Part shown: positions 41,499 to 57,821 of the stretch, one piece after another
Position numbering within the stretch: the stretch's first letter is position 1
Layout of the letters: the number at the start of each line of letters is the position of its first letter
DNA from: Acidobacteriota bacterium
GTDB lineage: Bacteria; Acidobacteriota; UBA6911
Direction of reading: 5' to 3'
NCBI GenBank assembly: GCA_963664705.1
Contig: OY761556.1
Span: forward strand, 4,768,001 to 4,832,000
Length of the DNA: 64,000 nucleotides
The notes under the pieces: model-generated
What the model saw: the letters and a program-made list of their open reading frames with translations, nothing else
What the model was told of the DNA's origin: nothing
Databases searched by the model: none
Translations under genes and position numbers: made by a program

Positions 41499-41723
41499 CT
41501 ACCCACCCTCTAAAAAGGGATAGAGCTTGATGGAGTCGCCGTCTTTAATGACGCTGTTCAGCGGAGCCCATGCATCATTGATGAGCAGCATGCCGACATC
41601 GTCATCGGTAAGCCCGAGTCTGGCTTCAAGCTGCGCCAGGCTGAGAGACTCACCGATATCCAGCGTGTCATGCCTTTTGCCCATCCGCTCTACCAGATTC
41701 AACCCGAACTCAATTTCAATCAT
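41499..41723 (-). CDS. MoaD/ThiS-family sulfur carrier
   Basis: 74 aa, beta-grasp size, ends IKDGDSIKLYPFLEGG with the C-terminal GG. Confidence 0.9.
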   Translation of the reverse strand: MIEIEFGLNLVERMGKRHDTLDIGESLSLAQLEARLGLTDDDVGMLLINDAWAPLNSVIKDGDSIKLYPFLEGG

Positions 41724-41741
41724 ACCGTTCCCTTGGGCCTT

Positions 41742-43457
41742 TTAGCGCAGGAGGCCTTTTTGCATCTCTTCGTCGGAAAGATCGAAGACATGATTCGTAG
41801 GCGGCAGGGGAATTCTGTACATATATTCCGGCAGCTTATCCTGGGCCGGGGAAACACCGGATTTGACATTGTATTCATACTCGAGGCGCGCGGTCTGGTG
41901 GCCTTGTTCCCAGAATTCGTCCACCGTCATCTTATCGCCGCAAATACCATAGGCAAACTTGGTGAAGAGCTCCGGTTTCTTGAACAGGTACGCACGGGCA
42001 AAGATGCAGAATCCCATGTTTTCCAAGGCAGCCACCTGCAACTGCGTTTTGCGGGACAGGTCTCCCTGGCCCTCGCAGGACAGAGGAGGAACCGTGGCAC
42101 GGGCGCCGTAGCAATTACCCGTAGTATGATCGCCGCCTTGCGACGTCATCGCGAAGGTAACGCCGTTGCCCTTCAGGGCTCGCGGATCATATCCCGGAAA
42201 TGCCTGGCCCTTTGACATCGGCAGATCATTGATTCCGAAAACTTCACCGGTGGTCTTGACGCCATTGCCGATCACGCGGCCAAGCGGCGTGGCCGCCTCA
42301 ATCTCGTTGAGGAGTTTCATGAAGCTCTCTTCATTGCCGAACTCGGCTATCCCCGCTTCCGCAGCAACGCCGAGCGCGGCGCCAGTCTCGATCGCATCCA
42401 ATCCCAGGTCGTTTACCCTGTCATTCAGATGCGCAATGCTGTCCAGGGTACCCAGGCACAGATTGGAGCCCAGCAGCGACAGGTTTTCATACTGAACCGT
42501 GGAGCAGATCGATTTCCCGCCTTCGTCGGGGAAGATGGACAGGCACTTGATCATGCAGCCGTTCATACAAGCCTGACCGGTTTTGCCATCACCGCCACGA
42601 GCATTAATGAGCTCGACCAATTTTTCGCCGCCGATTTCGGCGAACTTGTCAAAAGCTCCCAGCGTGAAGTTACGGGTGGGACACAGCCCCAGCTCGTTGA
42701 CGATTTTGAACATGCCGGTCGTGCCATAGAGCTGATTCGTCTTTTTGATCGTTGGCATGGCCTCGACAAGCATCTGGTGGTATTCCTTTGCCGCCTCGGT
42801 AAAGACGGCTTTGTCGAAGTATTCCACCTTCGAAGTGCTGGCCGGAACGATCACCACCGCTTTGACCTGCTTGCTCCCCAGCACGGCACCCATGCCGCCG
42901 CGGGCCGCAAAGCGCATTTCGCCTTTGGGAGCGGCGCACACAACGCCCGCGCCTCGCATCAGATATTCGCCGGCAGGGCCGTTGCAGATAATGCCGCACT
43001 TCTCGCCAAACTTGTGCCGCAATGTCTGGATGGTATTCCGCGCGCCCATGTGGAGCAGCTCGTTCATAACCTCGAGCTTAATGCCCTCTTCCGAAACAAC
43101 GAGGACGTAGGTGTTCTTGTCATCGGCGGCAGGCAGGCGCTCGATGATGATGGCGCGGATGCCATGCCTTGCCAGGTCGTTGGCAGCGGTGCCTCCGGAG
43201 CTGGCTTCCTTGATGCCGTTGGTGAGCGGGCTCTTCCCGCCGATGGAAAGCCTGCCGGAACTGGAAACCGCGGTGCCTCCCAGCAGACCTGTGCAAATGA
43301 TGAGCTTATTCTTGATGCCAAGAGGCTCGCAGGTCGCGTCAACCTCATCGTTCATGAAACGGGCGATAAAACCTCTGGAACCGTAGCCGTTATATTTCCC
43401 GGCATCCTCCTGGGTGATCCCCTTGGTCTCCATGTTTACTCTAACAATTCTTGCCAT
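41742..43457 (-). CDS. aor: Aldehyde:ferredoxin oxidoreductase (AOR/WOR family, tungstopterin)
   Basis: SGRLSIGGKSPLTNGIKEA, AARGGMGAVLGSK, CMNGCMIKC, YENL, LGLDAIETG, KGQAFPGYDPRALKG, GGDHT. Confidence 0.93.
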   Translation of the reverse strand: MARIVRVNMETKGITQEDAGKYNGYGSRGFIARFMNDEVDATCEPLGIKNKLIICTGLLGGTAVSSSGRLSIGGKSPLTNGIKEASSGGTAANDLARHGIRAIIIERLPAADDKNTYVLVVSEEGIKLEVMNELLHMGARNTIQTLRHKFGEKCGIICNGPAGEYLMRGAGVVCAAPKGEMRFAARGGMGAVLGSKQVKAVVIVPASTSKVEYFDKAVFTEAAKEYHQMLVEAMPTIKKTNQLYGTTGMFKIVNELGLCPTRNFTLGAFDKFAEIGGEKLVELINARGGDGKTGQACMNGCMIKCLSIFPDEGGKSICSTVQYENLSLLGSNLCLGTLDSIAHLNDRVNDLGLDAIETGAALGVAAEAGIAEFGNEESFMKLLNEIEAATPLGRVIGNGVKTTGEVFGINDLPMSKGQAFPGYDPRALKGNGVTFAMTSQGGDHTTGNCYGARATVPPLSCEGQGDLSRKTQLQVAALENMGFCIFARAYLFKKPELFTKFAYGICGDKMTVDEFWEQGHQTARLEYEYNVKSGVSPAQDKLPEYMYRIPLPPTNHVFDLSDEEMQKGLLR

Positions 43458-43633
43458 ACACCTATGTCTCCTACTTTATTATTCCGGCATCCAAAGATCT
43501 ATCAGCCTGCCTACGGTGACTATGCGCAGACCAAGCAGTCAGACGATCGCCCGTCAGTACGGGTCAACCATCCACACACTTATAATCGTAATAAATAGAT
43601 TTTCAGCTGAGTTTAATTTTCGGGTGCCATCCT

Positions 43634-44356
43634 CTAAGCCATTGTTCCGCATACGGGACAGTCCGGTCTGCGACCGATCCCGAGCGGCGAAAAAGTCCAT
43701 TCAGAACCATTGAAAAGCAGCATTTTTCCTGCCGGTCCTGTTCGTCCCAGCAGATTCTCGACTACCGCCAAAGCCTCCATGGAACCGATAATACCGGCCA
43801 TGGGGCCAAGAGACACTGTTACATGCCCGCCGGTCCGTCTGTTTTCAAACCAGCACGAGAGGCAGGGCGTCTGGCGCGGGGCCACCGTCGTCACATAGCC
43901 GCTCCATCCATCGATCCCGCCATCCACGAGCGGCTTGCCCTGCGCAACACACAAGCGATTGGCCAGCAGACGCGTTTCCCGATTGTCCAGCGCCAGCGCC
44001 ACAAGATCGCTTCCGGCTACCATCGACGGGCCGTTCTGCTCCGTAAACCTCGCCGTTACAGGCGTCACCCGAACCGTGCCGTTCAGCGCCCGCAGGCACT
44101 CCGCCGCCCGTTCAGCCTTCCAGTAGCCTAAATCCGCTTCCGTATAGAGGATCTGACGATTCAGGTTGCTTTCCGATACCCTGTCATCGTCCACAACCGT
44201 GAGGTTTCCTACACCGGCCGCAACCAGATAATATAGCAGCGGAGAACCCAGACCTCCAGCGCCGAGCACGAGTACACGAGCACACGAGAGCTTCTTCTGA
44301 CCTTCTTCGCCAAACAGCGCCGCCTGCCGCGCATAGCGCTCGTTCGTCTCGCTCAT
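43634..44356 (-). CDS. moeB: HesA/MoeB/ThiF family adenylyltransferase
   Basis: ERYARQ, GAGGLGS, DDDRVSESNLNRQ, PCLSC and C-terminal CPVC Zn motif; no rhodanese domain. Confidence 0.88.
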   Translation of the reverse strand: MSETNERYARQAALFGEEGQKKLSCARVLVLGAGGLGSPLLYYLVAAGVGNLTVVDDDRVSESNLNRQILYTEADLGYWKAERAAECLRALNGTVRVTPVTARFTEQNGPSMVAGSDLVALALDNRETRLLANRLCVAQGKPLVDGGIDGWSGYVTTVAPRQTPCLSCWFENRRTGGHVTVSLGPMAGIIGSMEALAVVENLLGRTGPAGKMLLFNGSEWTFSPLGIGRRPDCPVCGTMA

Positions 44357-44553
44357 ATTCTTTCATCCTTTTGGCGCGGGCGAAAGAAATTTCTGAAATT
44401 GAATTGCGTCGGCGCGATCAATCTTTTGGCTCGATCATCCTCCGTTACCCGCACAGCGGAAATGGTACCGCCATGTTCCTGAAGCGATACTCTCTCCGAT
44501 TATGATGATAGCCCCGGCATGCATTGATGTAAAATATTAAAAAGCTATGCAAC

Positions 44554-44570
44554 CATACGGTTTGTCTATG
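44554..44570. promoter_or_regulatory. Putative LysR-type T-N11-A binding box
   Basis: CATA-cggtttgtc-TATG palindrome just upstream of the lysR RBS in the divergent moeB/lysR region. Confidence 0.55.
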
Positions 44571-44586
44571 ATAGGAGGCACGGCCC

Positions 44587-45471
44587 ATGGAACTGCGTCA
44601 GATGGAATACTTTCAAAAGGCGGGACTGCTGCGGAGTATCACCAAGGCGGCGGGGGAGTTGCACGTCTCCCAGCCCTCAGTTACGGTGGCCATTCAAAAG
44701 CTCGAGGAGGAGCTTGGAGTGCCCCTCCTCGATCGGAGTCAGAAGCAGATTGCACTCACACCGGAAGGGCACGTGTGCCTGCGGCGAACGGACGACATTC
44801 TTGCACGCATACGCGATCTGGTCTCTGAGATGAATGATTACCGCTTCGCACAAAAGGGAATCATCAAAATCGGTATCACGCCGGTGATTGGAGCCTATTT
44901 CTTTCCTGCGGCTCTCGCGAGATTTCAGAAGACTCACCCCCGTGTGCAGGTTGCGGTTATTGAAGAAGGTTCTTTGTCGCTCCGAAAGAGACTCGCACGC
45001 GGCGAACTGGATCTCACGATGATGATTACCTCCAAGACGTCCTCCCATCTCGAAACTGTGCCGGTGGCCAAGGGGCAATTGCTTGCCTGCTTCTCGCGCC
45101 ACAATCCCCTGGGCAAACTGAACGAAATCCCCTTTTCCAAACTCCGGGATCAACCTTTCATTATGTTTCGCGAAGATACCTACAGCCGGAAGATGATCCT
45201 GGACGAATGCGCCCGGAACAAATTCACACCCCGGATTGTGTTTTCCTCAAGCCAAATCGAAACTGTCATGGGGATGGTCGGACATGGAGTGGGCATCTCG
45301 TTTCTGTTGGATACCATCGTCACCAAATATCCTGAAGTGATTGGAAGACCCCTGTCCAAACCGTTATTGCTCGAAGCTGGATTAGCCTGGAGCAAGGACC
45401 GATACCTTTCAAAAGCGGCCAAACTTCTTATGGATTCGTTTCTGGAAGCGCCCAAGGAAATCGAGCCTTAG
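44587..45471 (+). CDS. LysR family transcriptional regulator
   Basis: MELRQMEYF...SITKAAGELHVSQPSVTVAIQKLEEELG HTH plus substrate-binding domain; RBS AGGAGG. Confidence 0.95.
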   Translation: MELRQMEYFQKAGLLRSITKAAGELHVSQPSVTVAIQKLEEELGVPLLDRSQKQIALTPEGHVCLRRTDDILARIRDLVSEMNDYRFAQKGIIKIGITPVIGAYFFPAALARFQKTHPRVQVAVIEEGSLSLRKRLARGELDLTMMITSKTSSHLETVPVAKGQLLACFSRHNPLGKLNEIPFSKLRDQPFIMFREDTYSRKMILDECARNKFTPRIVFSSSQIETVMGMVGHGVGISFLLDTIVTKYPEVIGRPLSKPLLLEAGLAWSKDRYLSKAAKLLMDSFLEAPKEIEP

Positions 45472-45609: not shown

Positions 45610-46278
45610 ATGGTGAGCGGTATCGACAGCAACCTGGCATCAACAATGGCAAGCAGCCTGTTCTCCAAACTCGACACCAACAATCGAGGCTATCTTCAGA
45701 AATCCGATCTTGAATCTGCTTTCAGCTCCATCTCCAGCGATTCCGATTCAAGCAGTGCGGACGATGTTTTTGACACATTGGATATCAACAGCGATGGCAA
45801 GGTCACGCAGGACGAAATGGCCACAGCCTTGAAGAATATTCTCGGCAGCCAGCCCAATGGCGCCAGCATGCCGGAAGGAGGGCCTGGCGGACCGGGCGGC
45901 ACGCCTCCTCCACCACCACCGGAGGGATCGGACAAAGGATTTACGAAAGATGAATTGAGCACGCAGCTCGAGGAGATCGGCAGTTCCGACAGCAAGCGTT
46001 CTTCGTTGATCTCCAATATCGTGGAAAATTTCGATGAAGCGGATACGGATAAGGACGGCAAGGTGAGCATGCAGGAGGCCATGGCCTTTGATAAAGCTCA
46101 CCAGACATCATCATCCATATCCACCCAAGCCGCTTCGGATGGATCTACGTCCAGCACCGATAGCAAGAACAGCGAGGATCTTTTCATGAAGCAGATCATG
46201 AAATTACTGAGCGCCTATCAGGTAGCCCAAAGCGGGTCGAGCAGTTCTGATAGTTCCAGCCTCTCGATTTCGGCTTGA
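45610..46278 (+). CDS. Ser-rich EF-hand Ca-binding protein
   Basis: EF loops DTNNRGYLQKSD, DINSDGKVTQDE and DTDKDGKVSMQE; GGPGGPGGTPPPPPP linker; no Sec signal. Confidence 0.85.
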   Translation: MVSGIDSNLASTMASSLFSKLDTNNRGYLQKSDLESAFSSISSDSDSSSADDVFDTLDINSDGKVTQDEMATALKNILGSQPNGASMPEGGPGGPGGTPPPPPPEGSDKGFTKDELSTQLEEIGSSDSKRSSLISNIVENFDEADTDKDGKVSMQEAMAFDKAHQTSSSISTQAASDGSTSSTDSKNSEDLFMKQIMKLLSAYQVAQSGSSSSDSSSLSISA

Positions 46279-46516: not shown

Positions 46517-47353
46517 TCAGTATGCGGCGCTCCCGGTAGAAATGACGTCGCGCGTGTCTATCGTAAATCTCTTATAGCTCGAAAACTGGTGAACATTGCG
46601 CCAGTGCTGTCGTTCGGTAGCGATGTCCACCGTGGCTGATGACGGAAGCCATTCCGCACGCTCCTGAGCCGGGAACTTATGGGGGTCATACAGCACCTCC
46701 ATTTCCATGGATTTGAGGTTATGATCGCTGCGCGACGACTCCAGCCCGGCGATTATTCTGTGAATGGCGCCGGAATCCGGGTCAATCCAGGCGCTTCCTT
46801 TGATGTCCAGCGGATAATCTATTCCGCGCAACCGCAGCGCGGTAGTCGATTTTGTGCCGGCAATGTGCTTGAATTGAATCTTAGCCAGACGGTGACCGTC
46901 GGCTGTCTCATACCCCGCGATCTGATATTCGAAATCGCTCTGATAATAAGGATGAAATACGAGCAGGAGCGTGGGGATGCCATTGGTTATCAGCAGGGGG
47001 ATATTCTTGTCTTTATTCTTTTTCCCTTGCAGCAGCCTGGATTCCTCCACAGAGAAACCCTCATCATCCACGTTCAGCAAGACCAGGTAATCAAAAGTTG
47101 ATTTCTGGATATACTCAGGTTTCCCCTCTTTTCCCAGCTTGGCCTGGGTCACTTTCTCCACGCATGTCACGGATTTGAACTGTGTCCAGAATTCCCCGAC
47201 CGACCTTCTCGCCTGCCCGAGGATAACCTTCAGGCTTGGGCCGTCATCCGGAACGTCACTTTCCGCGGCCTTCGCTGAACTCCCGGCGATGCACAGGCAG
47301 AAACACAGAACCATTCTATGGATCCAATGGTGCATTGTCTTTGGCAGATTCAT
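46517..47353 (-). CDS. Secreted beta-rich hypothetical protein, last gene of the cytochrome operon
   Basis: RBS GGAGG before ATG 47353 (alternative GTG 47392 overlaps the upstream stop); signal peptide; KGSAWIDPDSGAIHRI, WLPSSATV and FSSYKRF, reminiscent of LolA/sigma-E-regulator-like periplasmic folds. Confidence 0.75.
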   Translation of the reverse strand: MNLPKTMHHWIHRMVLCFCLCIAGSSAKAAESDVPDDGPSLKVILGQARRSVGEFWTQFKSVTCVEKVTQAKLGKEGKPEYIQKSTFDYLVLLNVDDEGFSVEESRLLQGKKNKDKNIPLLITNGIPTLLLVFHPYYQSDFEYQIAGYETADGHRLAKIQFKHIAGTKSTTALRLRGIDYPLDIKGSAWIDPDSGAIHRIIAGLESSRSDHNLKSMEMEVLYDPHKFPAQERAEWLPSSATVDIATERQHWRNVHQFSSYKRFTIDTRDVISTGSAAY

Positions 47354-47388
47354 AAATGAACCTCCGGATCGGCAAAGTGTGGATCTAT

Positions 47389-49197
47389 TCACTGAAGTCC
47401 CTTTTCACGCCGCGGCCTCCGATTGTCGAAACGGTAGCCGATAGTCAGAAAGGATTGACGGTAATTCTCGGTGTTGCCGCGGTACACGGTCATTCCTGCG
47501 CCCAGATAATAGTGCGGCCCAAACATCCAGTTCAGATTCCCGGTGACAAAGCGGGAACGGCTTTGGCTGGTGAGGTTGGAAAATACATTTTGCTCGCCGA
47601 TCTGCACATCAAACTGAAGGTTCTCGCCGAGTTCTCGCGACACCATCAACGCCTGATAAGTCCCGCGACCGAAGGAGCTGTCGAACCGGGAATATCGCAC
47701 ATCCGCGCGAATCCCTGTGTGCAGGATATCGGCAGCGGTCACTCCGACCAGGTAATCCCAGGAAGGTCTTGCATCCCCTGATCGGCTGCTGCGGCCGACC
47801 GTTGAATAGAATCCGATTTTGCGAGGCAATTCCAGGTGGAATCCACCGCTCAACCCCTGGAAAAGATATTTATCCAGGAGCCCCGTGCTCAGAAGCCGCT
47901 CATCAAAAGTCGGAATATTTCGGAAGTAGTTCTCGCTGAGATCAAAGCTCAATATCTTCCAGGGTTGCAGCCGGATCGTGAGATAGCTTCGGCTGAGTGC
48001 CAGTCCGGATTGTGCCGGGCTCTGAACGGAATCTCCGGATGCGGTATTCCCCGTCGAGGCGTAGGAATTGTTGAGCAGGTCGTACTGCACATCACTGTAT
48101 ATGGAAAGATATCGTTTATAGAAGATTCCATTTTGAAAAAAGGCAAATTGGCGATCGGGACGCCAGTTGACGCGGGTCAGCGCAACTCCTCCGGTGGTGG
48201 TAAAGCGGAATGAGTCAAAGCTGCCCGCCTCATAATTCACAAATCCGCCGCCCATCTGACGGTGAGGATCGTAATCCCACGAGGTCGGATCCGGAGCTGA
48301 TCCACCGAAAATACCGATCGTTGCCTTGCCATAGCGTCGGCCCAGGTAAAAGCCATCCATGGTGTCCAGGCTGCTGGCCCACGGGACAAACAGCCGGCCA
48401 ACGCCGGCAACCCAGCGCGAATTGGGGTTATCATAGGAAAGGCTCAGATGGTAGGTTCTATTGACCAGGTCGACAAACGTGGGAGTCTGGGAAACACCTC
48501 CCGCTGTATGCCGATATCCGCGGTAATAGCCTCTGAGATTCCAGTAGCTTCCTCCCAGCCGCGTGGCATCGAGTTGAACCGAAAGTCCGGTCAGGGTAGA
48601 GGCCGTTGACCCGGGCTGCTGCAGATAACCAAAATCAAACCCGATCCGACCGCGAGTCCGGTTCACTTCGGGAGAAGGCGGCTTCGGCAAACTTTCCCGC
48701 ACCTCCTGATCCAGTGGATCCTCCTGTGTGAAGCTGATGACCTGCGGGTATCTCCCAACATTGGTCGCGGCCGGCTTTTGCTTGAGCTTTTCGATTTCCT
48801 CGGGCGGCACGCACGCAACGTCTCCGGGATTTATATTTCCGGATCCGGAAATTATCCTGGCTACCGCGGAAGAGGCGGTAACCGATTCAATTTCGATTTG
48901 TGCGACTTCGGTATCTGATGCCCCCCTGCGCCGTATTACAAGTTTCTGGCCCTGAACCAGTCCGGCATCACTTCCGCCTTCCAGGTATACAGCCTCGGCG
49001 GATACATATTTAACTCCATATTGCGAGCCGACTTTGACGTCGGCCAAACACAGAGAGTGAATCAGTGGAAACAGCAGAATCAATGCCGTCATCGCAGTCC
49101 GGATCCGAGCGGATCGCGGCCACAGAGTGCGAAAGCGCGACCGCTGTATTCGCCTACCGGCAGGCATTGGCGATATCGTCATCAAAGGAAGAAACAT
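47389..49197 (-). CDS. Probable outer-membrane beta-barrel protein with small N-terminal beta domain
   Basis: TGATG overlap with the cytochrome stop; signal-like MTALILLFPLIHSLCLA; VYLEGGSDAGLVQGQKL (FlgT-C-like); many alternating aromatic strands; terminal strand FLTIGYRF followed by a short tail. Confidence 0.75.
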   Translation of the reverse strand: MFLPLMTISPMPAGRRIQRSRFRTLWPRSARIRTAMTALILLFPLIHSLCLADVKVGSQYGVKYVSAEAVYLEGGSDAGLVQGQKLVIRRRGASDTEVAQIEIESVTASSAVARIISGSGNINPGDVACVPPEEIEKLKQKPAATNVGRYPQVISFTQEDPLDQEVRESLPKPPSPEVNRTRGRIGFDFGYLQQPGSTASTLTGLSVQLDATRLGGSYWNLRGYYRGYRHTAGGVSQTPTFVDLVNRTYHLSLSYDNPNSRWVAGVGRLFVPWASSLDTMDGFYLGRRYGKATIGIFGGSAPDPTSWDYDPHRQMGGGFVNYEAGSFDSFRFTTTGGVALTRVNWRPDRQFAFFQNGIFYKRYLSIYSDVQYDLLNNSYASTGNTASGDSVQSPAQSGLALSRSYLTIRLQPWKILSFDLSENYFRNIPTFDERLLSTGLLDKYLFQGLSGGFHLELPRKIGFYSTVGRSSRSGDARPSWDYLVGVTAADILHTGIRADVRYSRFDSSFGRGTYQALMVSRELGENLQFDVQIGEQNVFSNLTSQSRSRFVTGNLNWMFGPHYYLGAGMTVYRGNTENYRQSFLTIGYRFDNRRPRREKGLQ

Positions 49198-52100
49198 CAA
49201 TTCCCCCCTGAGCGATGGCATTGATAGCAGTTGGCGCTGTTGTACACGTAGCCGCTCCTTCCTGCATGCTTGGAATCGGTCTGCGCTTTGGTGTGGCAAG
49301 ACGTGCAGGTGAAAACAGAATAGTTTGATGGATTTGTATGACAGTCACTGCACGTTTTGGCATTGCCGTGACTCGTTTTCCACCATGTGTGATTAAAGGT
49401 CGCTCCCGCCCACGAGGTCGTGCTGTGACAGGTGGCACAAGTGGTTGGGAAGCCGGCGGACTGATGGCCCGGATTCGTTGTCGTCTTGTACTCGGAGGAA
49501 TGGCACGCATAACAGTCGGTCGGCGTTCCGGCGTACTTGCCGCTGATATGACATTGATTGCATTGCACACTGGTATGTGCCCCGCTCAGCGGAAATGGCG
49601 TCGTGCCGTGATTAAAGGTTGCACCGGCCCAGGAAGTCGTACTGTGGCATGTGGCGCACTGCTGCGGGAACCCCGCAGACGCATGGTTCGGATTCGTCGT
49701 ACCATTGTAGTTATTCAGGTGGCACGAGACGCAGTTGGTTGCCAGCCCGGCATAGACTCCGTTCTTATGGCAGGAGGTACACGTAACACTGACGTGAGCC
49801 CCAGTCAGCGGAAACGCCGTCTTCGTATGGCTGAAAGCCGCTCCCGTGAAGCTTGTGGTGGAATGGCAGAGCGAGCAGTCCTGCGGATACCCCGACTGTG
49901 CATGATTCGGGCTCGTCGTACCGTTGTAGTTGCTCAGGTGGCACGAGGCACAGGCCGTCGGAAGCCCGGCGTAGACATTGTTTTTGTGGCAAGTGGCGCA
50001 CTGCACAGCCGTGTGGGCACCGGTGAGCGGAAATGGCGTCGTCGCATGATTGAAAGTCGCGCTGGCCCACGATTTCGTGTCGTGGCAGCTCGAACATTGC
50101 TGCGGAAATCCCGCCTGTGAATGATTAGGATTTGCCGTCCCACTGTAATCATTCAGATGGCACGACACGCAAGCCGTCGGAAGCCCGGCGTAGACGTTGT
50201 TCTTGTGACATGTCGCGCACTGTACAGCCGTGTGGGCGCCGGTCAGCGGAAATGGCGTTGTTGCATGATTGAAAGTCGCTCCGGCCCAGGCCGCCGTATT
50301 GTGGCAGGTCGTGCACTGCTGCGGAAACCCGCCCTGCGTATGGCTGGGGCTTGTGGTGCCGTTGTAGTCATTCAGATGGCAGGATACACAGGCCGTGGCA
50401 AGGCCGGCATAAACATTGTTTTTGTGACACGTCGCGCAGGGCACGCCTGTGTGCCCACCGCTCAATGGGAAGGCTGTTGCGGCGTGGTTGAAGGTTGCAC
50501 CCGCCCAGGTGGTCGTACCGTGACAGGCTGAGCACTGCTGCGAGAACCCGGCAGATCCGTGGTTCGGATTCATCGTACCCTTGTAGTTATTCAAGTGGCA
50601 GGACACGCAGTCCGTGGCAAGGCCCGCATAGACATTATTTTTATGGCATGTGGCGCATGGGACATTCGTATGCGCGCCGGTCAATGGGAACTTCGTCTGC
50701 GTGTTGTGATTGATCGAAACACCGCCCTGCCAGGAGGAGGTGCTGTGGCACTGACTGCAGTTCTGTGGATAGCCGGCAGCCGCATGGTTCGGATTCGTCG
50801 TACCCTTGTAGTTATTCAGGTGGCAGGACGCACAGTCGGTGGCAAGGCCTGCATAAACATTGTTTTTGTGGCACGTGGCGCACTGCACGCCTGTGTGCGC
50901 GCCGGTCAACGGAAACTTCGTCTGCGTACTGTGATTGATCGAAACGCCGCCCTGCCAGGAAGAGGTGCCGTGGCACTGGCTGCAATTCTGCGGGAACCCG
51001 GCCGCGGCATGATTCGGATTACTTGTACTCTTGTAGTTATTCAGGTGACACGATGCGCAGTCCATGGCAAGGCCCGCATAGACATTGTTTTGGTGGCACG
51101 CGGTGCATTGCGTATTTGCATGAGCGCCGCTTAGCGGGAATGCCGTTGTGCTGTGGCTGAAAGCCGCGCCCGCCCAGGACGTTGCACTATGGCAGCTGGT
51201 GCACTGCTGTGGAAAGCCGGCTGCTGCATGGTTCGGCTTTGCCGCACTCTTATAATCCGCCAGATGGCAGGACACGCAGGAGGTTGACAGGCCCGCATAG
51301 GCGTTGTTTTGGTGACACGAAGCGCATTGTACGCCGACATGGGCGCCGCTCAGCGGGAACTGCGTGGAAGCGCTGTGATTGAAAACAGCGCCGGCCCAGC
51401 CCGCGGGCGTGTGGCAGCTTACACAGTTACCGGAGAACCCCGCAGCCGCATGATTCGGGTTGTTCGTCGCTGAGTAATCCTTGGCATGGCAACTGATGCA
51501 GTCCGGCGAGGTGCCTGAAAACTTGCGGTTCGCGTGACAGGAGGTGCATTCGAGCTGGCCATGCCCGCCCGTCAGGACGAAGCCGGCGTAGCGGCCATGG
51601 TCGAACTTGTTACCCATCCAGCTGTCCATGCCGGCATGACACGACAGGCAGTCGGAGGGGAATTGGGCCGCGACATGATCCGGGGACTTCGCTGCTTTAA
51701 AATCGCCCGTGTGGCAGGACGCACAATCGGTGCTCAATCCCTTGAATTGCCCGACGGCGGCGCTTTTGTGACACGATATACAATCCGATGCAGCATGGGC
51801 ACCCATGAGCGGAAAACGATTCGTATGGTTTTTTGCGCTTGTCAGCGTCACACGCCAACCTCGGACGGAGTGACACTGCTCGCAATTGCTCCCCATCTGG
51901 CGGCGGTGAAAATCGGCGTGGCAATCCGCGCACTGCCGGCCCACATTGCTGAACACAAGCTTGGAGTGACACTGTCTGCAGCCTACACCGGTGTGCATCC
52001 CGCGCAATGGATAAGGTGTTTCCGAATGTTTGAAGTCGGGGAAAGGCCTGATCGGCTTGTAGCTCGTAGAGGCATGGCAGTTCGCGCATGGAATTGTAAT

Positions 52101-52448
52101 CGCCCCGTGCGGGCTGCCTTTCATGCCGGCTTTCGCATCCGCCTTCGCGGATGCAGCGCCGCCGGACTGGTGCATGGAGTGACATCCGGCGCAGGCACCG
52201 TTTTCAACGTTTCCCCCCAACGAAGGGTGCTTCCCGCTCTTCTGATCTTCCCGGATGCCGTCATGACAGCCGAGACACCGGAATTCAGGCTTCCCTTTTG
52301 AAAGATCGTGACAATCCGCGCAATGCTCCGAACCGCCAAGCATTTCGTGCCTGGCGGCAAGAGCGCCGGCAGATGTCTGCGCCGCATACCCCGTCGCGGC
52401 GCAAAACAGTACCCACACCAAGCCGAACTTTTTCACTGACAGTCGCAT
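49197..52448 (-). CDS. Giant multiheme cytochrome c with 43 CxxCH motifs and 12 tandem ~73-aa tri-heme repeats
   Basis: Sec signal; manual count of 43 CxxCH (4 N-terminal + 12x3 + 3 C-terminal); repeat consensus FNH..T.FPL.GAH..V.CxxCH.NNVYAGL.T.CxSCH...Y.....PNH...GFPQ.CxxCH...W. Confidence 0.95.
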   Translation of the reverse strand: MRLSVKKFGLVWVLFCAATGYAAQTSAGALAARHEMLGGSEHCADCHDLSKGKPEFRCLGCHDGIREDQKSGKHPSLGGNVENGACAGCHSMHQSGGAASAKADAKAGMKGSPHGAITIPCANCHASTSYKPIRPFPDFKHSETPYPLRGMHTGVGCRQCHSKLVFSNVGRQCADCHADFHRRQMGSNCEQCHSVRGWRVTLTSAKNHTNRFPLMGAHAASDCISCHKSAAVGQFKGLSTDCASCHTGDFKAAKSPDHVAAQFPSDCLSCHAGMDSWMGNKFDHGRYAGFVLTGGHGQLECTSCHANRKFSGTSPDCISCHAKDYSATNNPNHAAAGFSGNCVSCHTPAGWAGAVFNHSASTQFPLSGAHVGVQCASCHQNNAYAGLSTSCVSCHLADYKSAAKPNHAAAGFPQQCTSCHSATSWAGAAFSHSTTAFPLSGAHANTQCTACHQNNVYAGLAMDCASCHLNNYKSTSNPNHAAAGFPQNCSQCHGTSSWQGGVSINHSTQTKFPLTGAHTGVQCATCHKNNVYAGLATDCASCHLNNYKGTTNPNHAAAGYPQNCSQCHSTSSWQGGVSINHNTQTKFPLTGAHTNVPCATCHKNNVYAGLATDCVSCHLNNYKGTMNPNHGSAGFSQQCSACHGTTTWAGATFNHAATAFPLSGGHTGVPCATCHKNNVYAGLATACVSCHLNDYNGTTSPSHTQGGFPQQCTTCHNTAAWAGATFNHATTPFPLTGAHTAVQCATCHKNNVYAGLPTACVSCHLNDYSGTANPNHSQAGFPQQCSSCHDTKSWASATFNHATTPFPLTGAHTAVQCATCHKNNVYAGLPTACASCHLSNYNGTTSPNHAQSGYPQDCSLCHSTTSFTGAAFSHTKTAFPLTGAHVSVTCTSCHKNGVYAGLATNCVSCHLNNYNGTTNPNHASAGFPQQCATCHSTTSWAGATFNHGTTPFPLSGAHTSVQCNQCHISGKYAGTPTDCYACHSSEYKTTTNPGHQSAGFPTTCATCHSTTSWAGATFNHTWWKTSHGNAKTCSDCHTNPSNYSVFTCTSCHTKAQTDSKHAGRSGYVYNSANCYQCHRSGGN

Positions 52449-52456
52449 CCGATATC

Positions 52457-53041
52457 CTATCGAGTGGTCACAAGAAGGCTCATCATCTGCCGGGCCTTTT
52501 GTGCGCTTTCTGAATTCGAGTGCTGGGCTGTCAGGCGCGTCCAGTAGTCTCTCGCGCGATTCCCGTCACCGATATTGGCGTAAATGGCGCCAAGGTTATA
52601 GAGAGCATCCTCATAGGCGGGCTGCGTCTTTAGTATTCCTTCCGTATGCCGGATCGCCCCGTGGATGTCTCCGAGCTGAAACAGCACTTTCCCAAGTTCA
52701 AGATTTGCCTCCGGATTCTCCGGCTCCATGTCGAGGATCCTGCGCAAATCCGCCGCCGCTTCCTGGGCATGTCCGCTTTCCGATTCAATTTTAGCGAGCC
52801 TGAGAAGCACCGGTAAATGCCCCGGCCTCTTCTTCAGCGCAGTTCTGAGCATCTCCTGCTCATGCGGATTCTTCTCCCTGGATCCATCTGCAAACGCAGG
52901 CGAACCCGTGCCGGAATGTCCGGACGGTTCTTCCTTCACCGACCTCTTCGCATGTGTCGCCAGGTAGAATCCCGCCGCAATTACCGCGATTCCCAAAATC
53001 ACTATCGCTACAGCTCGTCGAAGCTTCACAAGCCTCCCCAT
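52457..53041 (-). CDS. Membrane-anchored tetratricopeptide repeat protein
   Basis: N-terminal TM (AVAIVILGIAVIAAGFYL) and TPRs (PENPEANLELGKVLFQLGD, PAYEDALYNLGAIYANIGD); 8 bp upstream of the cytochrome; start 53041 or GTG 53029. Confidence 0.85.
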   Translation of the reverse strand: MGRLVKLRRAVAIVILGIAVIAAGFYLATHAKRSVKEEPSGHSGTGSPAFADGSREKNPHEQEMLRTALKKRPGHLPVLLRLAKIESESGHAQEAAADLRRILDMEPENPEANLELGKVLFQLGDIHGAIRHTEGILKTQPAYEDALYNLGAIYANIGDGNRARDYWTRLTAQHSNSESAQKARQMMSLLVTTR

Positions 53042-53683: not shown

Positions 53684-54097
53684 GTGAGGGTGCGGATGCA
53701 AGGCTATTCCAATGACTCACATGATTCCAAATCTCAGGAATCTCTTCTCCTGGCGGCTGATTTCTTCCTTTTTCTTTCAGATTCTACTGTTCTGATGATC
53801 CTGAGCGCCATTCGCAGAAAGGAAATGACCTATCTGGAACTGGCCGGAGAACTTGGGATCCCTCCCCTGGTTGTTTTCACCAAGCTTCGGGCGATGGAAC
53901 GGGAGGGACTTCTTGTTTCGCACTTCCGCCCCAGGGGACTTTTCTTCCGCGTGGTGGATAACGAGGTTGCGCAGGCGCTTGAGCAGATACTGGCCATCCC
54001 GAAGAAACAGCTGCAGAGAGTTTACGATCGCAAGGCGGTTGCGGCGGGAACGAACGAAAACCGGCGGGAATCGCCGTTTCGAGACACTGCAAAATGA
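53684..54097 (+). CDS. ArsR-like winged-helix transcriptional regulator
   Basis: FLFLSDSTVLMILSAIRRKEMTYLELAGELGIPPLVVFTKLRAMEREGLLVS, a degenerate ArsR HTH; start uncertain. Confidence 0.7.
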   Translation: MRVRMQGYSNDSHDSKSQESLLLAADFFLFLSDSTVLMILSAIRRKEMTYLELAGELGIPPLVVFTKLRAMEREGLLVSHFRPRGLFFRVVDNEVAQALEQILAIPKKQLQRVYDRKAVAAGTNENRRESPFRDTAK

Positions 54098-54284
54098 GGA
54101 CAGAAACATGAACATTGCGGTCGGGATTTGCACGCGGCCTGCAAAATTTGCAGCAGATCCAACGACAGCCACCACAGGCTGAACTCCTAACTCAAACAGA
54201 GCGAATGAAATACGCCTCAACGAGCCATTGGGACCTCTCTTTGCCTGTCAAAAGGGTCTTCCTGACATTGCAGGAGAAGCAAAA

Positions 54285-55001
54285 ATGAAAAGATATCGAC
54301 GAACTCCATTGTTGGGATTGATGTTGCTGTTGGCAATTTCTGTCCAGGCTCAGGGAAGGCGGGCGAGAGGCCCTGCCAGGCAGGCGGATAGGCCGGCCCC
54401 TGCCGACGCCGCCCAATGTCTTGCCTTGGTCCAGTCCACTCCAAAACAGGCGCTGAACTCGATGGAGGCCGCCGGCCTCCTGTACATGCGGGAGGAAGAA
54501 AAGCTTGCGCACGATGTCACCCTGAAGTTGCAGGCAAAATGGGGGTCGCGTACATTCGGAAATATTACGCAAGCCGAGAACCGGCATATCGAAATGATCA
54601 AGCTGCTGTTGGATCGCTATCAACTGCAGGACATCGCTGCCCGAAACCCGGCCGGCACATTCCGCAATGAGGGGATCGCGGATTTGTACCATTCCTTTGT
54701 AGCGGAAGGCGAGCAGTCCTTGAAGGCCGCATGGAAAGTGGCGGCCGCAATCGAAGAGCTCGATATCCGCGACCTTGAAAAAGCCGCTCAGTCCACCGAC
54801 AATAGTGATCTGAAATTCGTTTACGATCATCTCCGAACCGCTTCGGAAAACCATATGCGCGTGTTTGTACAGCAGTTGAGCAGGGCGGGAGACTCCTATA
54901 TTCCGCAGCACATGAATCAAGGAGAATTCTCCCAGATCATCGCACGCGCCCAATCAGTTGGTCGCGGCAGCAAAAGGTCTTGCCCCTGGAATCAGCCCTG
55001 A
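54285..55001 (+). CDS. Secreted DUF2202 (ferritin-like) protein
   Basis: RBS AGGAG, signal peptide, YMREEEKLAHDV, FGNITQAENRH, IEELDIRDL, SENHMRVF. Confidence 0.88.
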   Translation: MKRYRRTPLLGLMLLLAISVQAQGRRARGPARQADRPAPADAAQCLALVQSTPKQALNSMEAAGLLYMREEEKLAHDVTLKLQAKWGSRTFGNITQAENRHIEMIKLLLDRYQLQDIAARNPAGTFRNEGIADLYHSFVAEGEQSLKAAWKVAAAIEELDIRDLEKAAQSTDNSDLKFVYDHLRTASENHMRVFVQQLSRAGDSYIPQHMNQGEFSQIIARAQSVGRGSKRSCPWNQP

Positions 55002-55031
55002 TACGCTATAACCACTTTTTACGGAATCACA

Positions 55032-56297
55032 ATGGCGGTCTCCTTGTCGAACCAGACTCGATTCCACCCGGCTCGCTGGATAGCTATTGCCGTGGTTGTT
55101 CTATGCATTGCGCTCCTCGCCAGTGCAGTCTTTAATTTCGTTACGCTATCGCGTCTGAGCAAATCCTATCTCTCGAATCGCGGCCATGAGATTGCCGCTG
55201 CGCTCGAAGGAATGGCACGCGGTCCCGGCAGGCGAAATAACCCGATATTCTGGCAATCAGTGCTGGAATCAAATTACACGCGCTACTCTGGTTCGGTAGC
55301 GTTTCTGTCCCTGGTGGATCAAAAAGGGAGCGTGCTCGCTTACAAAGGAAGCACAGCGGAGGTTCCGAGCGTCATCCCAACCACGCTGCGCGACGTGTAT
55401 ATCTTCAACCAGCCCCTTGCGTTGCCTCGTTTTGAGCATCAGGGAAATGGCGTTGTCAGCAGCTGGAGCATCCGCATCGGGCTTTACACAACCGAGACAG
55501 TCTCTATTCAAAGGCAGGCTCTTCTGCAGCTGGCAATAACCGGGATGACGGTTTTCACCCTGGTTCTCTTGGCCGTAAGTCTGATCCGCACGCTGAATCG
55601 CTTCCTTGAAATGAAGGCGCGGGAAGGAGCCGAAGCACAGCTCAAATCCCTGGGCATTATGTCGGCTTCGCTGGCCCATGAAATCAGAAACCCTCTGGGC
55701 GCCATGAAAGGGCTGACGCAACTGGCGCAGGAAGATCTGCCGGAAGATCATGCGGCGCAGGAAAAGTTGAAAACAGTCGTAAATGAAGCCGAGCGACTCG
55801 AACGATTGGTCAACGATCTGCTGGATTTTGCCCGTTCTAAAGAACCGAAAATCAGCAGTTTTGATCTTGTTGAACTTCTGACCGATATCAAGGCAATCCT
55901 CGGACCAAAGCTCGCTTCTTCGAAGGTAGACCTCCGGCTGACAAACAAAGGCGTACCCATGTTGGTTCGCTCGGATCCGGCGGGGCTAAGGCAAATACTG
56001 CTGAATGTATTGATCAACGCCATCGATGCCACATCCGAATCCCAAACCGTTGAATTGAAGGCATGCCTCTCCGAAGACGGAAAGACGATCCTGATCCAGG
56101 TTGATGATTCGGGAAAAGGGCTTGGCAAGGAAAACCCCGAAGAACTGTTTCTTCCTTTCGTAACCAAAAAGGTACGTGGGACAGGGTTGGGACTCGCAAT
56201 CTCGAGACAAATCGCCGAGAGCCTCGGCGGAACATTGACACTGGAGAGTTTGCCGGGAACCGGAGCCCGCTGTTCCATCACGTTACCCATTGTCTAA
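55032..56297 (+). CDS. Membrane sensor histidine kinase (ZraS/AtoS-like)
   Basis: Two TMs, SLAHEIRNPLGAMKG, LNVLINAIDA, FVTKKVRGTGLGL. Confidence 0.93.
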   Translation: MAVSLSNQTRFHPARWIAIAVVVLCIALLASAVFNFVTLSRLSKSYLSNRGHEIAAALEGMARGPGRRNNPIFWQSVLESNYTRYSGSVAFLSLVDQKGSVLAYKGSTAEVPSVIPTTLRDVYIFNQPLALPRFEHQGNGVVSSWSIRIGLYTTETVSIQRQALLQLAITGMTVFTLVLLAVSLIRTLNRFLEMKAREGAEAQLKSLGIMSASLAHEIRNPLGAMKGLTQLAQEDLPEDHAAQEKLKTVVNEAERLERLVNDLLDFARSKEPKISSFDLVELLTDIKAILGPKLASSKVDLRLTNKGVPMLVRSDPAGLRQILLNVLINAIDATSESQTVELKACLSEDGKTILIQVDDSGKGLGKENPEELFLPFVTKKVRGTGLGLAISRQIAESLGGTLTLESLPGTGARCSITLPIV

Positions 56298-56310
56298 AGC
56301 AGGCGGATTC

Positions 56311-57654
56311 ATGAAACTGAAGATACTTGTTGTCGACGATGAGGCGGGCCAACGACAGTTCATCAGCGGCGCTCTGGCTAAGGAGTACGATGTCACGGCC
56401 GCATCGAACGGCGTTGAAGCCTGCCAACTGCTGTCTCACTCCAGCTTCAGCCTCGTCATCACAGATGAGCGCATGCCGGACATGGGCGGGATAGAGCTGA
56501 TTCGATGGATGCGTGAAAACGCTCCGGAAACGCCGGTTATTGTACTCACGGCCTATGGCTCCGTGGAAACAGCCGTCGAAGCAATCAAGCTGGGCGCAGA
56601 AGAATACCTCACAAAGCCACTGAAGAGTCCGGAAGAGCTTCGGCTTATAGTCGGCAAAGTTTTGCGCAGCCGGGCAATGCGCGATCGCAGCCAGCTGCAT
56701 CAGGAGGAAACGGCCGCGGCTCTCCCGGCAGATGTTGTCGCTGAAAGCGAGAGCATGAAGCATGTCTTCCGGCTGGCAACGCAGGTGGCACAGCAGCCGA
56801 CCACAGTGCTCCTGACCGGAGAATCCGGAACAGGCAAGGAAGTGGTTGCCCGATTCATACACAGCCGAAGCCCGCGTTACGATCATACGTTTGTTGCGGT
56901 CAACTGCGCCGCCATCACCGAGACCTTGCTCGAATCGGAACTGTTCGGCCACGAAAAAGGCGCTTTTACCGGGGCGACACAAAACCGGCGCGGCCGGTTT
57001 GAATTGGCAGATGGCGGCACCCTGTTTCTGGACGAAATCGCTGAAATGGGTGTGGGCCTTCAGGCCAAATTGCTGCGCGTTCTCCAGGAACAGCAGTTCG
57101 AACGTATCGGCAGCGACCGGACCATGACGGTTGACGTCCGGGTCATTGCCGCAACAAATAAAGATCTAAACCTCAGCATTGCGGATAAATCCTTTCGAGA
57201 AGACCTCTATTACCGGTTAAACGTGTTTCCAATCCATATTCCCCCGCTGCGCGAGCGGCGGGACGATATTCTGCCACTGGCCAAATCCTTTGCTCAAAAA
57301 ATCTCGAGCCGTCTTGGCAGAGCGGCAGCCCCGATCAGCGCAGAAGCGTCAGAATTGATGAAGAGCTATGACTGGCCGGGAAATGTACGGGAATTGGCAA
57401 ATGCCATTGAGCGCGCCCTGATCGTCTCACGCACCGATTCTATCGAATCCGACGACTTGCCCGTGAAACGGGAACCGGCATCAACCGCGCAATCCTCACG
57501 CCCTGGTTTACTGGCCCAGGTTGAAAGAACCTCAATCCTGGATGTACTGGCCCGGAACAAAGGAGACCGGCGCGCGACGGCGGAGGAATTGGGCATCAGT
57601 CTGCGCACACTTCAATATCGCCTGAAAGAATACGGGATTACCGGGCGCGAATAG
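56311..57654 (+). CDS. Sigma54-dependent response regulator (REC-AAA+-Fis HTH; ZraR/AtoC-like)
   Basis: LVVDDE, GESGTGKE, ESELFGHEKGAFTGA, FLDEI, FREDLYYRLNV, WPGNVREL, C-terminal HTH. Confidence 0.96.
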   Translation: MKLKILVVDDEAGQRQFISGALAKEYDVTAASNGVEACQLLSHSSFSLVITDERMPDMGGIELIRWMRENAPETPVIVLTAYGSVETAVEAIKLGAEEYLTKPLKSPEELRLIVGKVLRSRAMRDRSQLHQEETAAALPADVVAESESMKHVFRLATQVAQQPTTVLLTGESGTGKEVVARFIHSRSPRYDHTFVAVNCAAITETLLESELFGHEKGAFTGATQNRRGRFELADGGTLFLDEIAEMGVGLQAKLLRVLQEQQFERIGSDRTMTVDVRVIAATNKDLNLSIADKSFREDLYYRLNVFPIHIPPLRERRDDILPLAKSFAQKISSRLGRAAAPISAEASELMKSYDWPGNVRELANAIERALIVSRTDSIESDDLPVKREPASTAQSSRPGLLAQVERTSILDVLARNKGDRRATAEELGISLRTLQYRLKEYGITGRE

Positions 57655-57809
57655 CTGGGAGCGCCGCCATCTCAACGCAATGCCGCATCCGATTTGTCGA
57701 GGGCGAAGCCCTTCGGAAGCCGGTGGCAAGCAGCCGCACTTCACGGTTTCCCATGCGGGCACGCCTTTTTGCAAATAATATGCGGGCATTAGTGTCGCGG
57801 CACTCCCAG
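57655..57809. repeat. REP-like element with terminal inverted repeats between convergent genes
   Basis: CTGGGAGCGCCGC ... GCGGCACTCCCAG. Confidence 0.6.
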
Positions 57810-57821
57810 TAGGACTCGATT

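What the first reader, a model, noticed from the sequence alone, without database searches (positions are those of the whole stretch)
46517..53041. Candidate new porin-cytochrome conduit: TPR + 43-heme cytochrome + beta-barrel + secreted protein
Seen: four tightly coupled genes (8-bp gap, TGATG overlap, possible GTGA overlap) encode a membrane-anchored TPR protein, a Sec-exported 1083-aa cytochrome with 43 CxxCH motifs, a ~600-aa probable outer-membrane beta-barrel and a secreted beta-rich protein. Known: porin-cytochrome pairs such as Shewanella MtrAB and Geobacter OmabcB carry electrons across the outer membrane, usually with about 8-12 hemes per cytochrome. Inference: this is an extracellular electron-transfer system of different architecture in a probable Acidobacterium. 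One very long heme chain would be threaded through or exported by the barrel, and the TPR protein would act as a CcmI/CycH-like maturation chaperone.
Basis: partly seen in the sequence, partly recalled or inferred. Interest (0 to 1): 0.9.

Follow-up and report, generated by a model that had tools for sequence, protein, structure and literature searches.

The report
Fused giant-cytochrome outer-membrane electron conduit
These four genes encode a cytochrome with 43 heme-binding motifs, formed by fusing two normally separate cytochrome genes, next to a predicted outer-membrane pore; they are a stripped-down copy of a widespread, unnamed gene system resembling the predicted 'PCC3' conduit and likely carry electrons across the cell's outer membrane.

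Summary
Observation confirmed: four coupled genes, 43 CxxCH plus 44 free His. The third gene folds as a 22-strand outer-membrane barrel, the fourth as a LolA-like carrier.

The locus is a reduced copy of a larger cluster in Acidobacteriota and a Bacteroidota plasmid: 23-heme cytochrome A, variable cytochrome B (10-84 hemes), barrel, a membrane protein with the PCC3 heme-b signature (IMP), and a 4Fe-4S flavoprotein. The same genome holds a complete copy (L001). This matches PCC3 (He 2017) in organisation; sequence homology to PCC3 could not be tested.

New here: the cytochrome is A's three-heme cap fused to all of B (3+40). The fusion recurs in other genomes and sits in one barrel clade. Of 29 other genomes of the genus, 7 have the barrel and none the IMP.

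Best reading: an outer-membrane electron conduit detached from its own input module. Barrel-cytochrome binding has only weak modelling support. The TPR belongs to the system but is not shown to be CcmI/CycH. New variant of a known, untested kind.

The parts
52457..53041 (-). 194-aa TPR protein with one N-terminal membrane anchor or signal segment and about three TPR repeats; a system-specific family with two conserved His; likely an assembly or maturation helper (function inferred)
52116..52448 (-). Signal peptide plus three-heme N-cap derived from cytochrome A, then a short linker (residues 1-111); 3 CxxCH and 3 further His kept in all five fused sequences read
49197..52115 (-). Complete cytochrome B moiety (residues 112-1083): 40 CxxCH, conserved N-cap, triheme repeats of mostly 73-75 aa, conserved six-heme C-terminal unit; whole protein 25 aa per heme, 42% Thr/Ser/Ala/Gly
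47389..49197 (-). Outer-membrane beta-barrel (start 49197 or 49092): small N-terminal beta domain, flexible linker, 22 predicted strands, last strand ending GYRF; no Pfam or NCBIfam family
46517..47353 (-). 278-aa exported protein with a LolA-superfamily fold (best Z 11.2, rmsd 3.9 A, 180 aligned, 3bk5); accessory, found with the Acidobacteriota-type barrels

Best explanation
The locus encodes a 43-motif fused cytochrome and a predicted 22-strand outer-membrane barrel that likely assemble into a conduit carrying electrons across the outer membrane, likely fed by general periplasmic carriers because the locus lacks its own inner-membrane input genes. Shown: gene anatomy, the A-cap/B fusion, barrel fold (predicted), cytochrome-barrel gene linkage, and loss of A, IMP and flavoprotein genes. 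Inferred for the ancestral six-to-seven-gene system: NAD(P)H or ferredoxin-level electrons pass through the anchored 2x[4Fe-4S]/FAD protein to two b hemes in the IMP, along the fixed-length 23-heme cytochrome A across the periplasm, into cytochrome B held by the barrel, whose variable triheme rod points outwards. Inferred for this copy: most of A was deleted and its three-heme cap became the periplasmic entry point of one polypeptide wire. The direction is most likely outward (reduction of Fe(III), humics or partner cells), but is untested. The TPR and LolA-like proteins are inferred assembly helpers.
For: 43 CxxCH with 44 spare His, about one distal ligand per heme, at 25 aa per heme. Barrel model and matches to outer-membrane channels: best Z 17.3, rmsd 5.7, 368 aligned to PiuA. 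B next to the barrel in 103 of 105 loci with room; among 50 well-covered loci B 50 (one, L064, is a doubtful remote match), A 41, IMP 37, flavoprotein 36. A has 23 hemes in 48 of 58 uncut copies, while B follows 3n+1 in 64 of 70: a fixed and a free length. The IMP has two WX3HX13H motifs and SGxxG, as defined for PCC3/PCC4. The flavoprotein has Fer4 and Pyr_redox domains. Fusion in window, L071/G481, L072, G479, P0128, P0131; barrels of the fused loci fall in one clade nested among full operons (SH-aLRT 100, quick tree). Shortened A (13 or 11 hemes) occurs in four further loci, all without an IMP gene. In the genus, barrel in 7 of 29 other genomes, IMP in 0 of 29; in the rest of the family the same 7 genomes have both. 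Complex model of the homologous L124 pair: 0.33 against best control 0.00, runs agree in at least 48% of contacts, partner pLDDT at least 71; this mark was reached by 116 of 157 solved complexes and 2 of 215 mismatches, but at 0.60 or under by only 18 of those 157 and both mismatches, so it is weak. The genome has a GspD over cut-off, a possible export route.
Against: No member has been tested. The complex score is weak, is for a homologous pair (barrel 44-45% identical to the window's) and gave no interface. The barrel's closest folds are TonB-dependent receptors and substrate porins, not electron conduits, and 22 strands is narrower than MtrB's 26 (recalled). The cytochrome has only a Sec-type signal and no lipobox, so surface exposure is unproven. 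The full cluster also sits on a plasmid of Emticicia oligotrophica, an aerobe by recall, which does not fit anaerobic respiration well. The A-cap diverges faster than B (43-55% against 74-78%). No periplasmic donor was identified. Most of the 29 genus genomes are drafts, so IMP absence means not found with this profile. The window's own genome does keep one IMP, so supply in trans is possible here.
Confidence: 0.62

Rival explanations
1. The barrel is a dedicated export or anchoring pore, and the cytochrome is released or tethered outside as a free rod, wire or redox shuttle; the barrel itself holds no heme chain.
For: Free variation of B length in steps of three hemes; Thr/Ser/Ala/Gly-rich composition; usher pores head the Foldseek list; a LolA-like carrier and a TPR protein, typical export helpers, sit in the operon.
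Against: Full operons carry a complete inner-membrane input chain and a fixed-length A, which makes most sense if electrons cross the envelope through this complex; no plug or POTRA-like domain was recognised in the barrel.
Confidence: 0.13
2. The cytochrome stays in the periplasm, tethered at the barrel, and acts as an electron store (capacitor) during redox swings, not as a path to the outside.
For: Sec signal only; capacitor roles have been proposed for such proteins; presence in soil and aerobic taxa.
Against: A store needs no barrel, yet the barrel is the one near-invariant partner; a 40-84-heme rod would exceed a periplasm's width unless laid sideways (inference).
Confidence: 0.1
3. The same conduit runs inwards, taking electrons from Fe(II), minerals or partner cells, as hypothesised for PCC3 in iron oxidisers.
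For: PCC3 was described in Fe(II) oxidisers, and some PCC3 proteins were detected in Sideroxydans proteomes.
Against: The full operon is paired with an NAD(P)H-type flavoprotein, which fits outward flow better on redox grounds (inference). Paludibaculum fermentans, an Fe(III) reducer, has a cluster matching by size and heme count only.
Confidence: 0.08
4. The four genes are a decaying remnant of the full operon with no current function.
For: A, IMP and flavoprotein genes are missing; the genome has an intact copy elsewhere; patchy presence in the genus (7 of 29); no TPR match in the 1.5 kb upstream in G479.
Against: All four frames are open; the fused form is kept at 60-65% identity over the first 187-215 residues in other genomes with all heme ligands; in G481 and G479 it is the only barrel match in the genome.
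Confidence: 0.07

Closest known systems
PCC3 porin-cytochrome cluster (He et al. 2017, PMC5566968; Hoover et al. 2023, PMC10734462)
   Same: Periplasmic cytochrome of about 21-27 hemes, variable repeat-rich second cytochrome (10-85 hemes, 22-39 aa per heme, Thr/Ser/Ala/Gly-rich), porin (22 strands predicted in Leptothrix cholodnii), about 300-aa IMP with two WX3HX13H and SGxxG; gene order periplasmic-extracellular-porin as in Slit_1447-1449. The parent family found here shows all of these.
   Different: PCC3 was reported from Proteobacteria; most of its porins have more predicted strands (up to 42); no flavoprotein, LolA-like or TPR gene is in its definition. The window's locus has no separate periplasmic cytochrome and no IMP. 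Sequence homology was not testable.
PCC4 and the Ptd operon (He et al. 2017; bioRxiv 10.1101/2023.11.21.568154)
   Same: Porin plus multiheme cytochromes plus ferric-reductase-like IMP plus Fe-S and FAD/NAD(P) redox proteins in one cluster, as in the full operon L001.
   Different: Their cytochromes have 4, 5 and 10 hemes, not 23 and 10-84; the window's locus lacks the membrane module.
MtrCAB / MtoAB / PioAB
   Same: Barrel gene next to an exported multiheme cytochrome; fed by a quinol oxidase encoded elsewhere in Shewanella (recalled), as inferred for the reduced locus.
   Different: No MtrB_PioB match; DmsE-type decaheme model 51 bits against a cut-off of 192; 22 predicted strands; 43 hemes in triheme repeats.
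c7-type polymeric cytochromes of Geobacter (PDB 3ov0)
   Same: Tandem triheme domains; Cytochrome_C7 E 1e-51 and TIGR04257 above cut-off; weak profile match to 3ov0, E 1.5e-4.
   Different: Those are periplasmic and have His/Met hemes (recalled); these repeats lack a conserved Met, have one spare His per heme and are tied to a barrel gene.
EET1-EET4 clusters of peat Acidobacteriota and Verrucomicrobiota (bioRxiv 10.64898/2026.05.27.727921)
   Same: Porin-multiheme clusters in the same phylum, proposed for humic or peat respiration.
   Different: Representatives have 8-13 hemes with OmcE-, MtrC-, MtrA- or OwcA-like folds; figures and supplements were not visible, so overlap is not excluded.

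Membership tests
PCC3 | Outer-membrane beta-barrel gene in the cluster | tested here: met
   22-strand model, pLDDT 80, matches to outer-membrane channels
PCC3 | Large repeat-rich cytochrome with 22-39 aa per heme, rich in Thr/Ser/Ala/Gly | tested here: met
   25 aa per heme, 42% Thr/Ser/Ala/Gly, triheme repeats; definition
PCC3 | Separate periplasmic cytochrome of about 21-27 hemes | tested here: not met
   Only a three-heme cap remains, fused to B. Met in the parent family (23 hemes in 48 of 58) and in L001 (26)
PCC3 | IMP gene with two WX3HX13H and SGxxG in the cluster | tested here: not met
   Absent from the window; the genome's single IMP lies in L001. Met in the parent family
PCC3 | Sequence homology to the proteobacterial PCC3 porin and cytochromes | not testable with these tools
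   No PCC3 sequence could be fetched: the supplement table is a picture, plasmid searches found none, and no proteobacterial genome could be used as a search centre
PCC3 | Extracellular location of the larger cytochrome | not testable with these tools
   Sec-type signal only; needs fractionation
MtrAB/MtoAB/PioAB | MtrB_PioB porin profile | tested here: not met
   No match in Pfam or NCBIfam scans; PF11854 finds nothing in the genome
MtrAB/MtoAB/PioAB | Decaheme DmsE/MtrA cytochrome | tested here: not met
   TIGR03508 51.2 bits against cut-off 192.2; 43 hemes
MtrAB/MtoAB/PioAB | Barrel fold like MtrB | tested here: inconclusive
   Listed matches are generic outer-membrane barrels with tied Z scores
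Geobacter OmabcB / ExtBCD | OmbB/ExtB porin homology | not tested
   No dedicated profile was searched; general scans gave no named porin
c7-type polymeric cytochromes | Tandem triheme c7-like domains | tested here: met
   PF14522 172.8 bits, TIGR04257 54.2 against cut-off 40
c7-type polymeric cytochromes | His/Met ligation of one heme per domain (recalled for GSU1996-type chains) | tested here: not met
   Repeats have three spare His and no conserved Met
CcmI/CycH | TPR_CcmH_CycH profile above cut-off | tested here: not met
   28.2 bits against 42; 14th of 38 matches in this genome
CcmI/CycH | Binds apocytochrome during heme attachment | not testable with these tools
   Needs binding or knockout tests
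LolA superfamily (fourth gene) | Open beta half-barrel with helical lid | tested here: met
   Z 11.2, rmsd 3.9, 180 aligned (3bk5); Z 11.0, rmsd 4.2, 187 aligned (4z48); Foldseek E 1e-6 to LolA3. No Pfam LolA match for 70 members, so fold-level only
Peat EET1/EET2 clusters | 8-13-heme OmcE/MtrC/MtrA/OwcA-like cytochromes | tested here: inconclusive
   Heme numbers differ from the representatives, but figures and supplements were not visible

The most novel reading that the evidence does not exclude
A single polypeptide wire, with a three-heme periplasmic inlet fused to a 40-heme modular rod, passes through or is clamped by its own 22-strand barrel and reaches tens of nanometres beyond the cell. 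It would be a one-chain replacement for the MtrA plus MtrC, or PCC3 two-cytochrome, relay, tunable in steps of three hemes, and freed from the NAD(P)H module of its parent operon.
Probability: 0.3. Interest if true: 0.8.

Novelty: new variant of a known kind. Interest (0 to 1): 0.52.

Why it matters
Acidobacteriota are abundant in soils, peat and sediments, and how they pass electrons to humics or minerals is open. The parent family was found in 34 of 401 sampled phylum genomes (a few matches weak) and has no Pfam or NCBIfam name. No PCC3-like conduit has been tested in the papers read. The natural series found here (A of 23, 13, 11 or 3 hemes; B of 10-84; with or without the IMP) tells which parts are needed and offers a two-gene minimal conduit for reconstitution. 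A covalent, length-tunable heme rod would also be a useful bioelectronic part. Named strains carry relatives: Candidatus Koribacter versatilis Acid345_0471 (cytochrome B) and Emticicia oligotrophica plasmid pEMTOL02 (full cluster).

Tried and rejected
1. Idea that the fused A-cap docks on an IMP supplied in trans: rejected as a general need, because G481 (97% complete) and G479 (93%) carry the fusion but no IMP or flavoprotein match. It stays possible in the window's own genome. 2. TPR as an incidental neighbour (my first guess): rejected; orthologues sit at either end of the operon in other genomes. 3. Direct homology test against PCC3: not achieved. Plasmid hits in Proteobacteria were the porin-less 7-heme/IMP/reductase clusters; their IMPs match the family profile at E 1e-15 to 1e-21. 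4. Sequence searches of solved structures gave nothing for the barrel and only weak multiheme matches for the cytochrome. MtrB was not among the listed fold matches; this does not exclude it. 5. Atlas search of the barrel returned only unnamed Acidobacteriota clusters, plus an AMIN-domain cluster at 0.89; the Atlas did not answer for the fourth protein. 6. Expression: no RNA holder listed; no reads were laid. 7. Literature searches found no description of this family or of the fusion. The Garber 2024 catalogue lists clusters in Ignavibacterium album (20 and 16 hemes, 542-aa protein) and Paludibaculum fermentans (260, 550 aa; 12, 5, 37 and 23 hemes) that match by size only; its table had no Emticicia row. 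bioRxiv supplements were closed. 8. The cytochrome was not folded alone (both jobs went to the barrel and the fourth protein). 9. The careful tree did not finish; the quick tree is cited and no clade test was run.
Full report
OBSERVATION. The four minus-strand genes are present as described. The cytochrome (52448-49197, 1083 aa) has 43 CxxCH motifs and 44 further His, about one distal ligand per heme, in triheme repeats of mostly 73-75 aa. The 8-nt gap and the TGATG overlap are exact. The fourth gene more likely starts at ATG 47353 than at the overlapping GTG. DNA repeat units are about 79% identical, and an independent assembly has the same 43 motifs (L071).

THE PROTEINS. The third gene has 1559 relatives among 7999 candidates scored and no Pfam or NCBIfam family. 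With 118 aligned sequences AlphaFold2 gives a small N-terminal beta domain, a low-confidence linker and 22 strands (pLDDT 80; 15 of 22 strands alternate clearly in hydrophobicity). Fold matches are outer-membrane channels: ushers, substrate porins and TonB-dependent receptors (best Z 17.3, rmsd 5.7, 368 aligned). The fourth protein (70 aligned sequences, pLDDT 85) has a LolA-superfamily fold (Z 11.2, rmsd 3.9, 180 aligned); the genome has five distant paralogues outside the two clusters. The TPR protein scores 28.2 bits on the CcmH/CycH TPR model (cut-off 42) and ranks 14th of 38 matches in its own genome. It forms a tight family with two conserved His, one in all 14 aligned sequences and one in 13.

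THE PARENT SYSTEM. The same genome has a second locus (L001): a 26-heme cytochrome (A), a 28-heme cytochrome (B, 54% identical to the window's), a barrel (52%), the LolA-like gene (41%), a membrane protein (IMP) and an anchored 2x[4Fe-4S]/FAD oxidoreductase. The barrel was found in 34 of 401 phylum genomes and 19 of 137 class genomes, counting the own genome. I examined 140 loci from genomes, metagenomes and one plasmid; 137 had a barrel match. B lay next to it in 103 of 105 with at least 700 nt upstream. Among 50 well-covered loci B was in 50 (L064 is a doubtful remote match), A in 41, IMP in 37, flavoprotein in 36, LolA-like in 34 and TPR in 9 at a 100-bit threshold. These loci are kin, and some are duplicates (L002=L152, L071=L151), so the counts are not independent. 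A has exactly 23 motifs in 48 of 58 uncut copies; complete-looking B ranges from 10 to 84 motifs (three shorter counts are likely fragments) and follows 3n+1 in 64 of 70. The IMP has two WX3HX13H motifs in 21 of 23 copies checked (one is frameshifted, one keeps both HX13H but lacks a Trp) and SGxxG in all. The full cluster, with a ccsA gene, is also on plasmid pEMTOL02 of Emticicia oligotrophica, Bacteroidota. Some metagenomic loci have only B and a barrel with a long N-terminal extension.

WHAT IS SPECIAL HERE. Residues 1-111 of the window's cytochrome match the N-terminal three-heme cap of A; from residue 112 it matches the mature start of B. So 43 = 3 + 40. The same fusion is in L071/G481 (43 hemes), L072 (28), G479, and in 3 of the 120 listed database hits (P0127, which is the G481 protein, P0128 with 28 and P0131 with 25). 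The three CxxCH and three spare His of the cap are kept in all five sequences read. The barrels of the window, L071, L072 and G479 fall in one clade nested among full operons (SH-aLRT 100, quick tree without bootstrap), which points to one deletion event. Four other loci have A shortened to 13 or 11 hemes, and all lack an IMP gene; L154 keeps a 23-heme A without an adjacent IMP, and L003 and L155 keep the IMP without A. In the window's genus 7 of 29 other genomes have the barrel and 0 of 29 the IMP, whereas the 7 barrel-positive genomes in the rest of the family all have the IMP. The flavoprotein was not found in the 4 genus genomes tested. The window's genome is the exception, with one IMP in L001.

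MECHANISM. Shown: anatomy, fusion, linkage, gene loss. Predicted: the folds. Inferred: in the full system electrons run from the flavoprotein through the IMP hemes and the fixed-length A to B at the barrel. A's constant length reads as a periplasm-wide ruler and B's free length as an outward rod. Once the input module was lost, A shrank, and here only its cap remains as an inlet for other periplasmic carriers; the genome has 33 ORFs with four or more CxxCH and a GspD over cut-off. Binding was modelled for a natural short pair, L124 (16-heme B and its barrel): score 0.33, best of three controls 0.00, at least 48% contact agreement, partner pLDDT at least 71. The mark was reached by 116 of 157 solved complexes and 2 of 215 mismatches, but at 0.60 or under by only 18 of the 157 and both mismatches; the support is weak, may reflect likeness to solved porin-cytochrome complexes, and gave no interface. 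Whether the rod threads the barrel, and the direction of flow, remain open.

COMPARISON WITH WHAT IS KNOWN. He et al. 2017 (PMC5566968; passages, section 15, text of Supplementary Figure 1 and Table 6, legend only of Table 4) defined PCC3: porin, periplasmic cytochrome (median 21 hemes), extracellular cytochrome (median 34, up to 85), and an IMP with the same motifs. Leptothrix cholodnii has 24 hemes, 22 strands and 22 hemes. Hoover et al. 2023 (PMC10734462, passages) report 21-27 and 10-35 hemes with linear models. Arbour et al. 2020 (PMC7399161, passages and section 18) show a 24/49-heme pair with a porin and variable heme number. A Sideroxydans proteome study (PMC11429942, passages) gives the gene order and leaves PCC3 function open. 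The Ptd operon (10.1101/2023.11.21.568154, passages) is a precedent for porin plus IMP plus FAD and Fe-S proteins. The peat preprint (10.64898/2026.05.27.727921, parts 1-5 and 7 of 8) describes Acidobacteriota clusters with 8-13-heme representatives; its supplements were closed and could bear on novelty. Wasmund et al. 2024 (PMC11495043, passages and section 10) note cytochromes of over 100 hemes without cluster context. Garber et al. 2024 (PMC11475568, part 2 of 3 and supplement searches) list size-matching clusters without describing them. PMC8258643 (passages) describes a different Bacteroidetes cluster; PMC8407742 (whole text) confirms Fe(III) reduction by Paludibaculum. The parent family therefore works like PCC3 and meets its organisational definition, but homology is untested. 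The window's locus fails two defining features (separate periplasmic cytochrome, IMP), so I do not file it as PCC3. It is not MtrAB by profile. Three earlier notes of this scan cover other copies, two of them calling the family PCC3-type; they are AI notes and not independent support, and none of the summaries shown mentions the fusion.

VERDICT. A real, conserved locus; a new variant of a predicted and still untested kind of porin-multiheme conduit. The 43-heme size is within the published range. The new points are the unnamed Acidobacteriota/Bacteroidota family with its flavoprotein, LolA-like and TPR partners, and the A-cap/B fusion that goes with loss of the inner-membrane module. I found neither in print in the searches. 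Interest 0.52.

Noticed in passing
L001 = G000:C1:2494000-2513999 (genes at L001 6033-15319, minus strand): Complete paralogous cluster in the same genome: 26-heme A, 28-heme B, barrel, LolA-like gene, IMP, 4Fe-4S/FAD protein. It is the only IMP match among the 30 genus genomes searched, and its barrel groups with a copy from another genus.
   Followed up: yes
L070 6830-18628 (NC_018749.1, Emticicia oligotrophica pEMTOL02): Plasmid-borne full cluster with its own ccsA gene: IMP, flavoprotein, 23-heme and 40-heme cytochromes, barrel.
   Followed up: partly
L096, L099, L110, L112, L116, L124: B plus an about 780-810-aa barrel with an extra N-terminal region (AMIN-like by the Atlas neighbour); no A gene, and no LolA-like or IMP gene where the contig reaches; several lie behind a sensor/response-regulator pair.
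   Followed up: partly
L171 6373-9645; L172 6234-9591; L173 4813-8300: Porin-less three-gene modules (FAD/2Fe-2S reductase, short IMP, 7-heme cytochrome) on Bradyrhizobium, Sphingobium and Pontibacter plasmids, two near copper-related genes; the cytochrome N-terminus resembles the A-cap.
   Followed up: partly
window 52457-53041: The TPR family keeps two His close to its first repeat (14 of 14 and 13 of 14 sequences); a possible heme- or metal-binding site, untested.
   Followed up: no
G000:C1:1653745-1672036: Another cluster of eight multiheme ORFs (4-16 motifs each) with a short TPR ORF at 1664025; a candidate second electron-transfer locus.
   Followed up: no
L003 3510-9845; L161 9966-15758; P0122: Very long relatives: 84 and 76 hemes in Acidobacteriota, and a partial 78-heme protein with related repeats named as Chloroflexi.
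   Followed up: no
window 45610-46278 (+): Ser-rich EF-hand protein convergent with the operon's end.
   Followed up: no
window 53684-58520: Divergent ArsR-type regulator, a DUF2202 protein, then a sensor kinase, a sigma-54-type response regulator and a second DUF2202-like ORF (read from the sequence). Not seen beside the other fused loci inspected.
   Followed up: no
window 40286-45471: Radical-SAM-like, aldehyde:ferredoxin-oxidoreductase-like, ThiF/MoeB-like and LysR-like ORFs, named from sequence reading only.
   Followed up: no
G438, G314, G330: Strong IMP matches (E about 1e-75) in class genomes with no barrel match to the window's protein; may hold more distant barrels or a porin-less form.
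   Followed up: no
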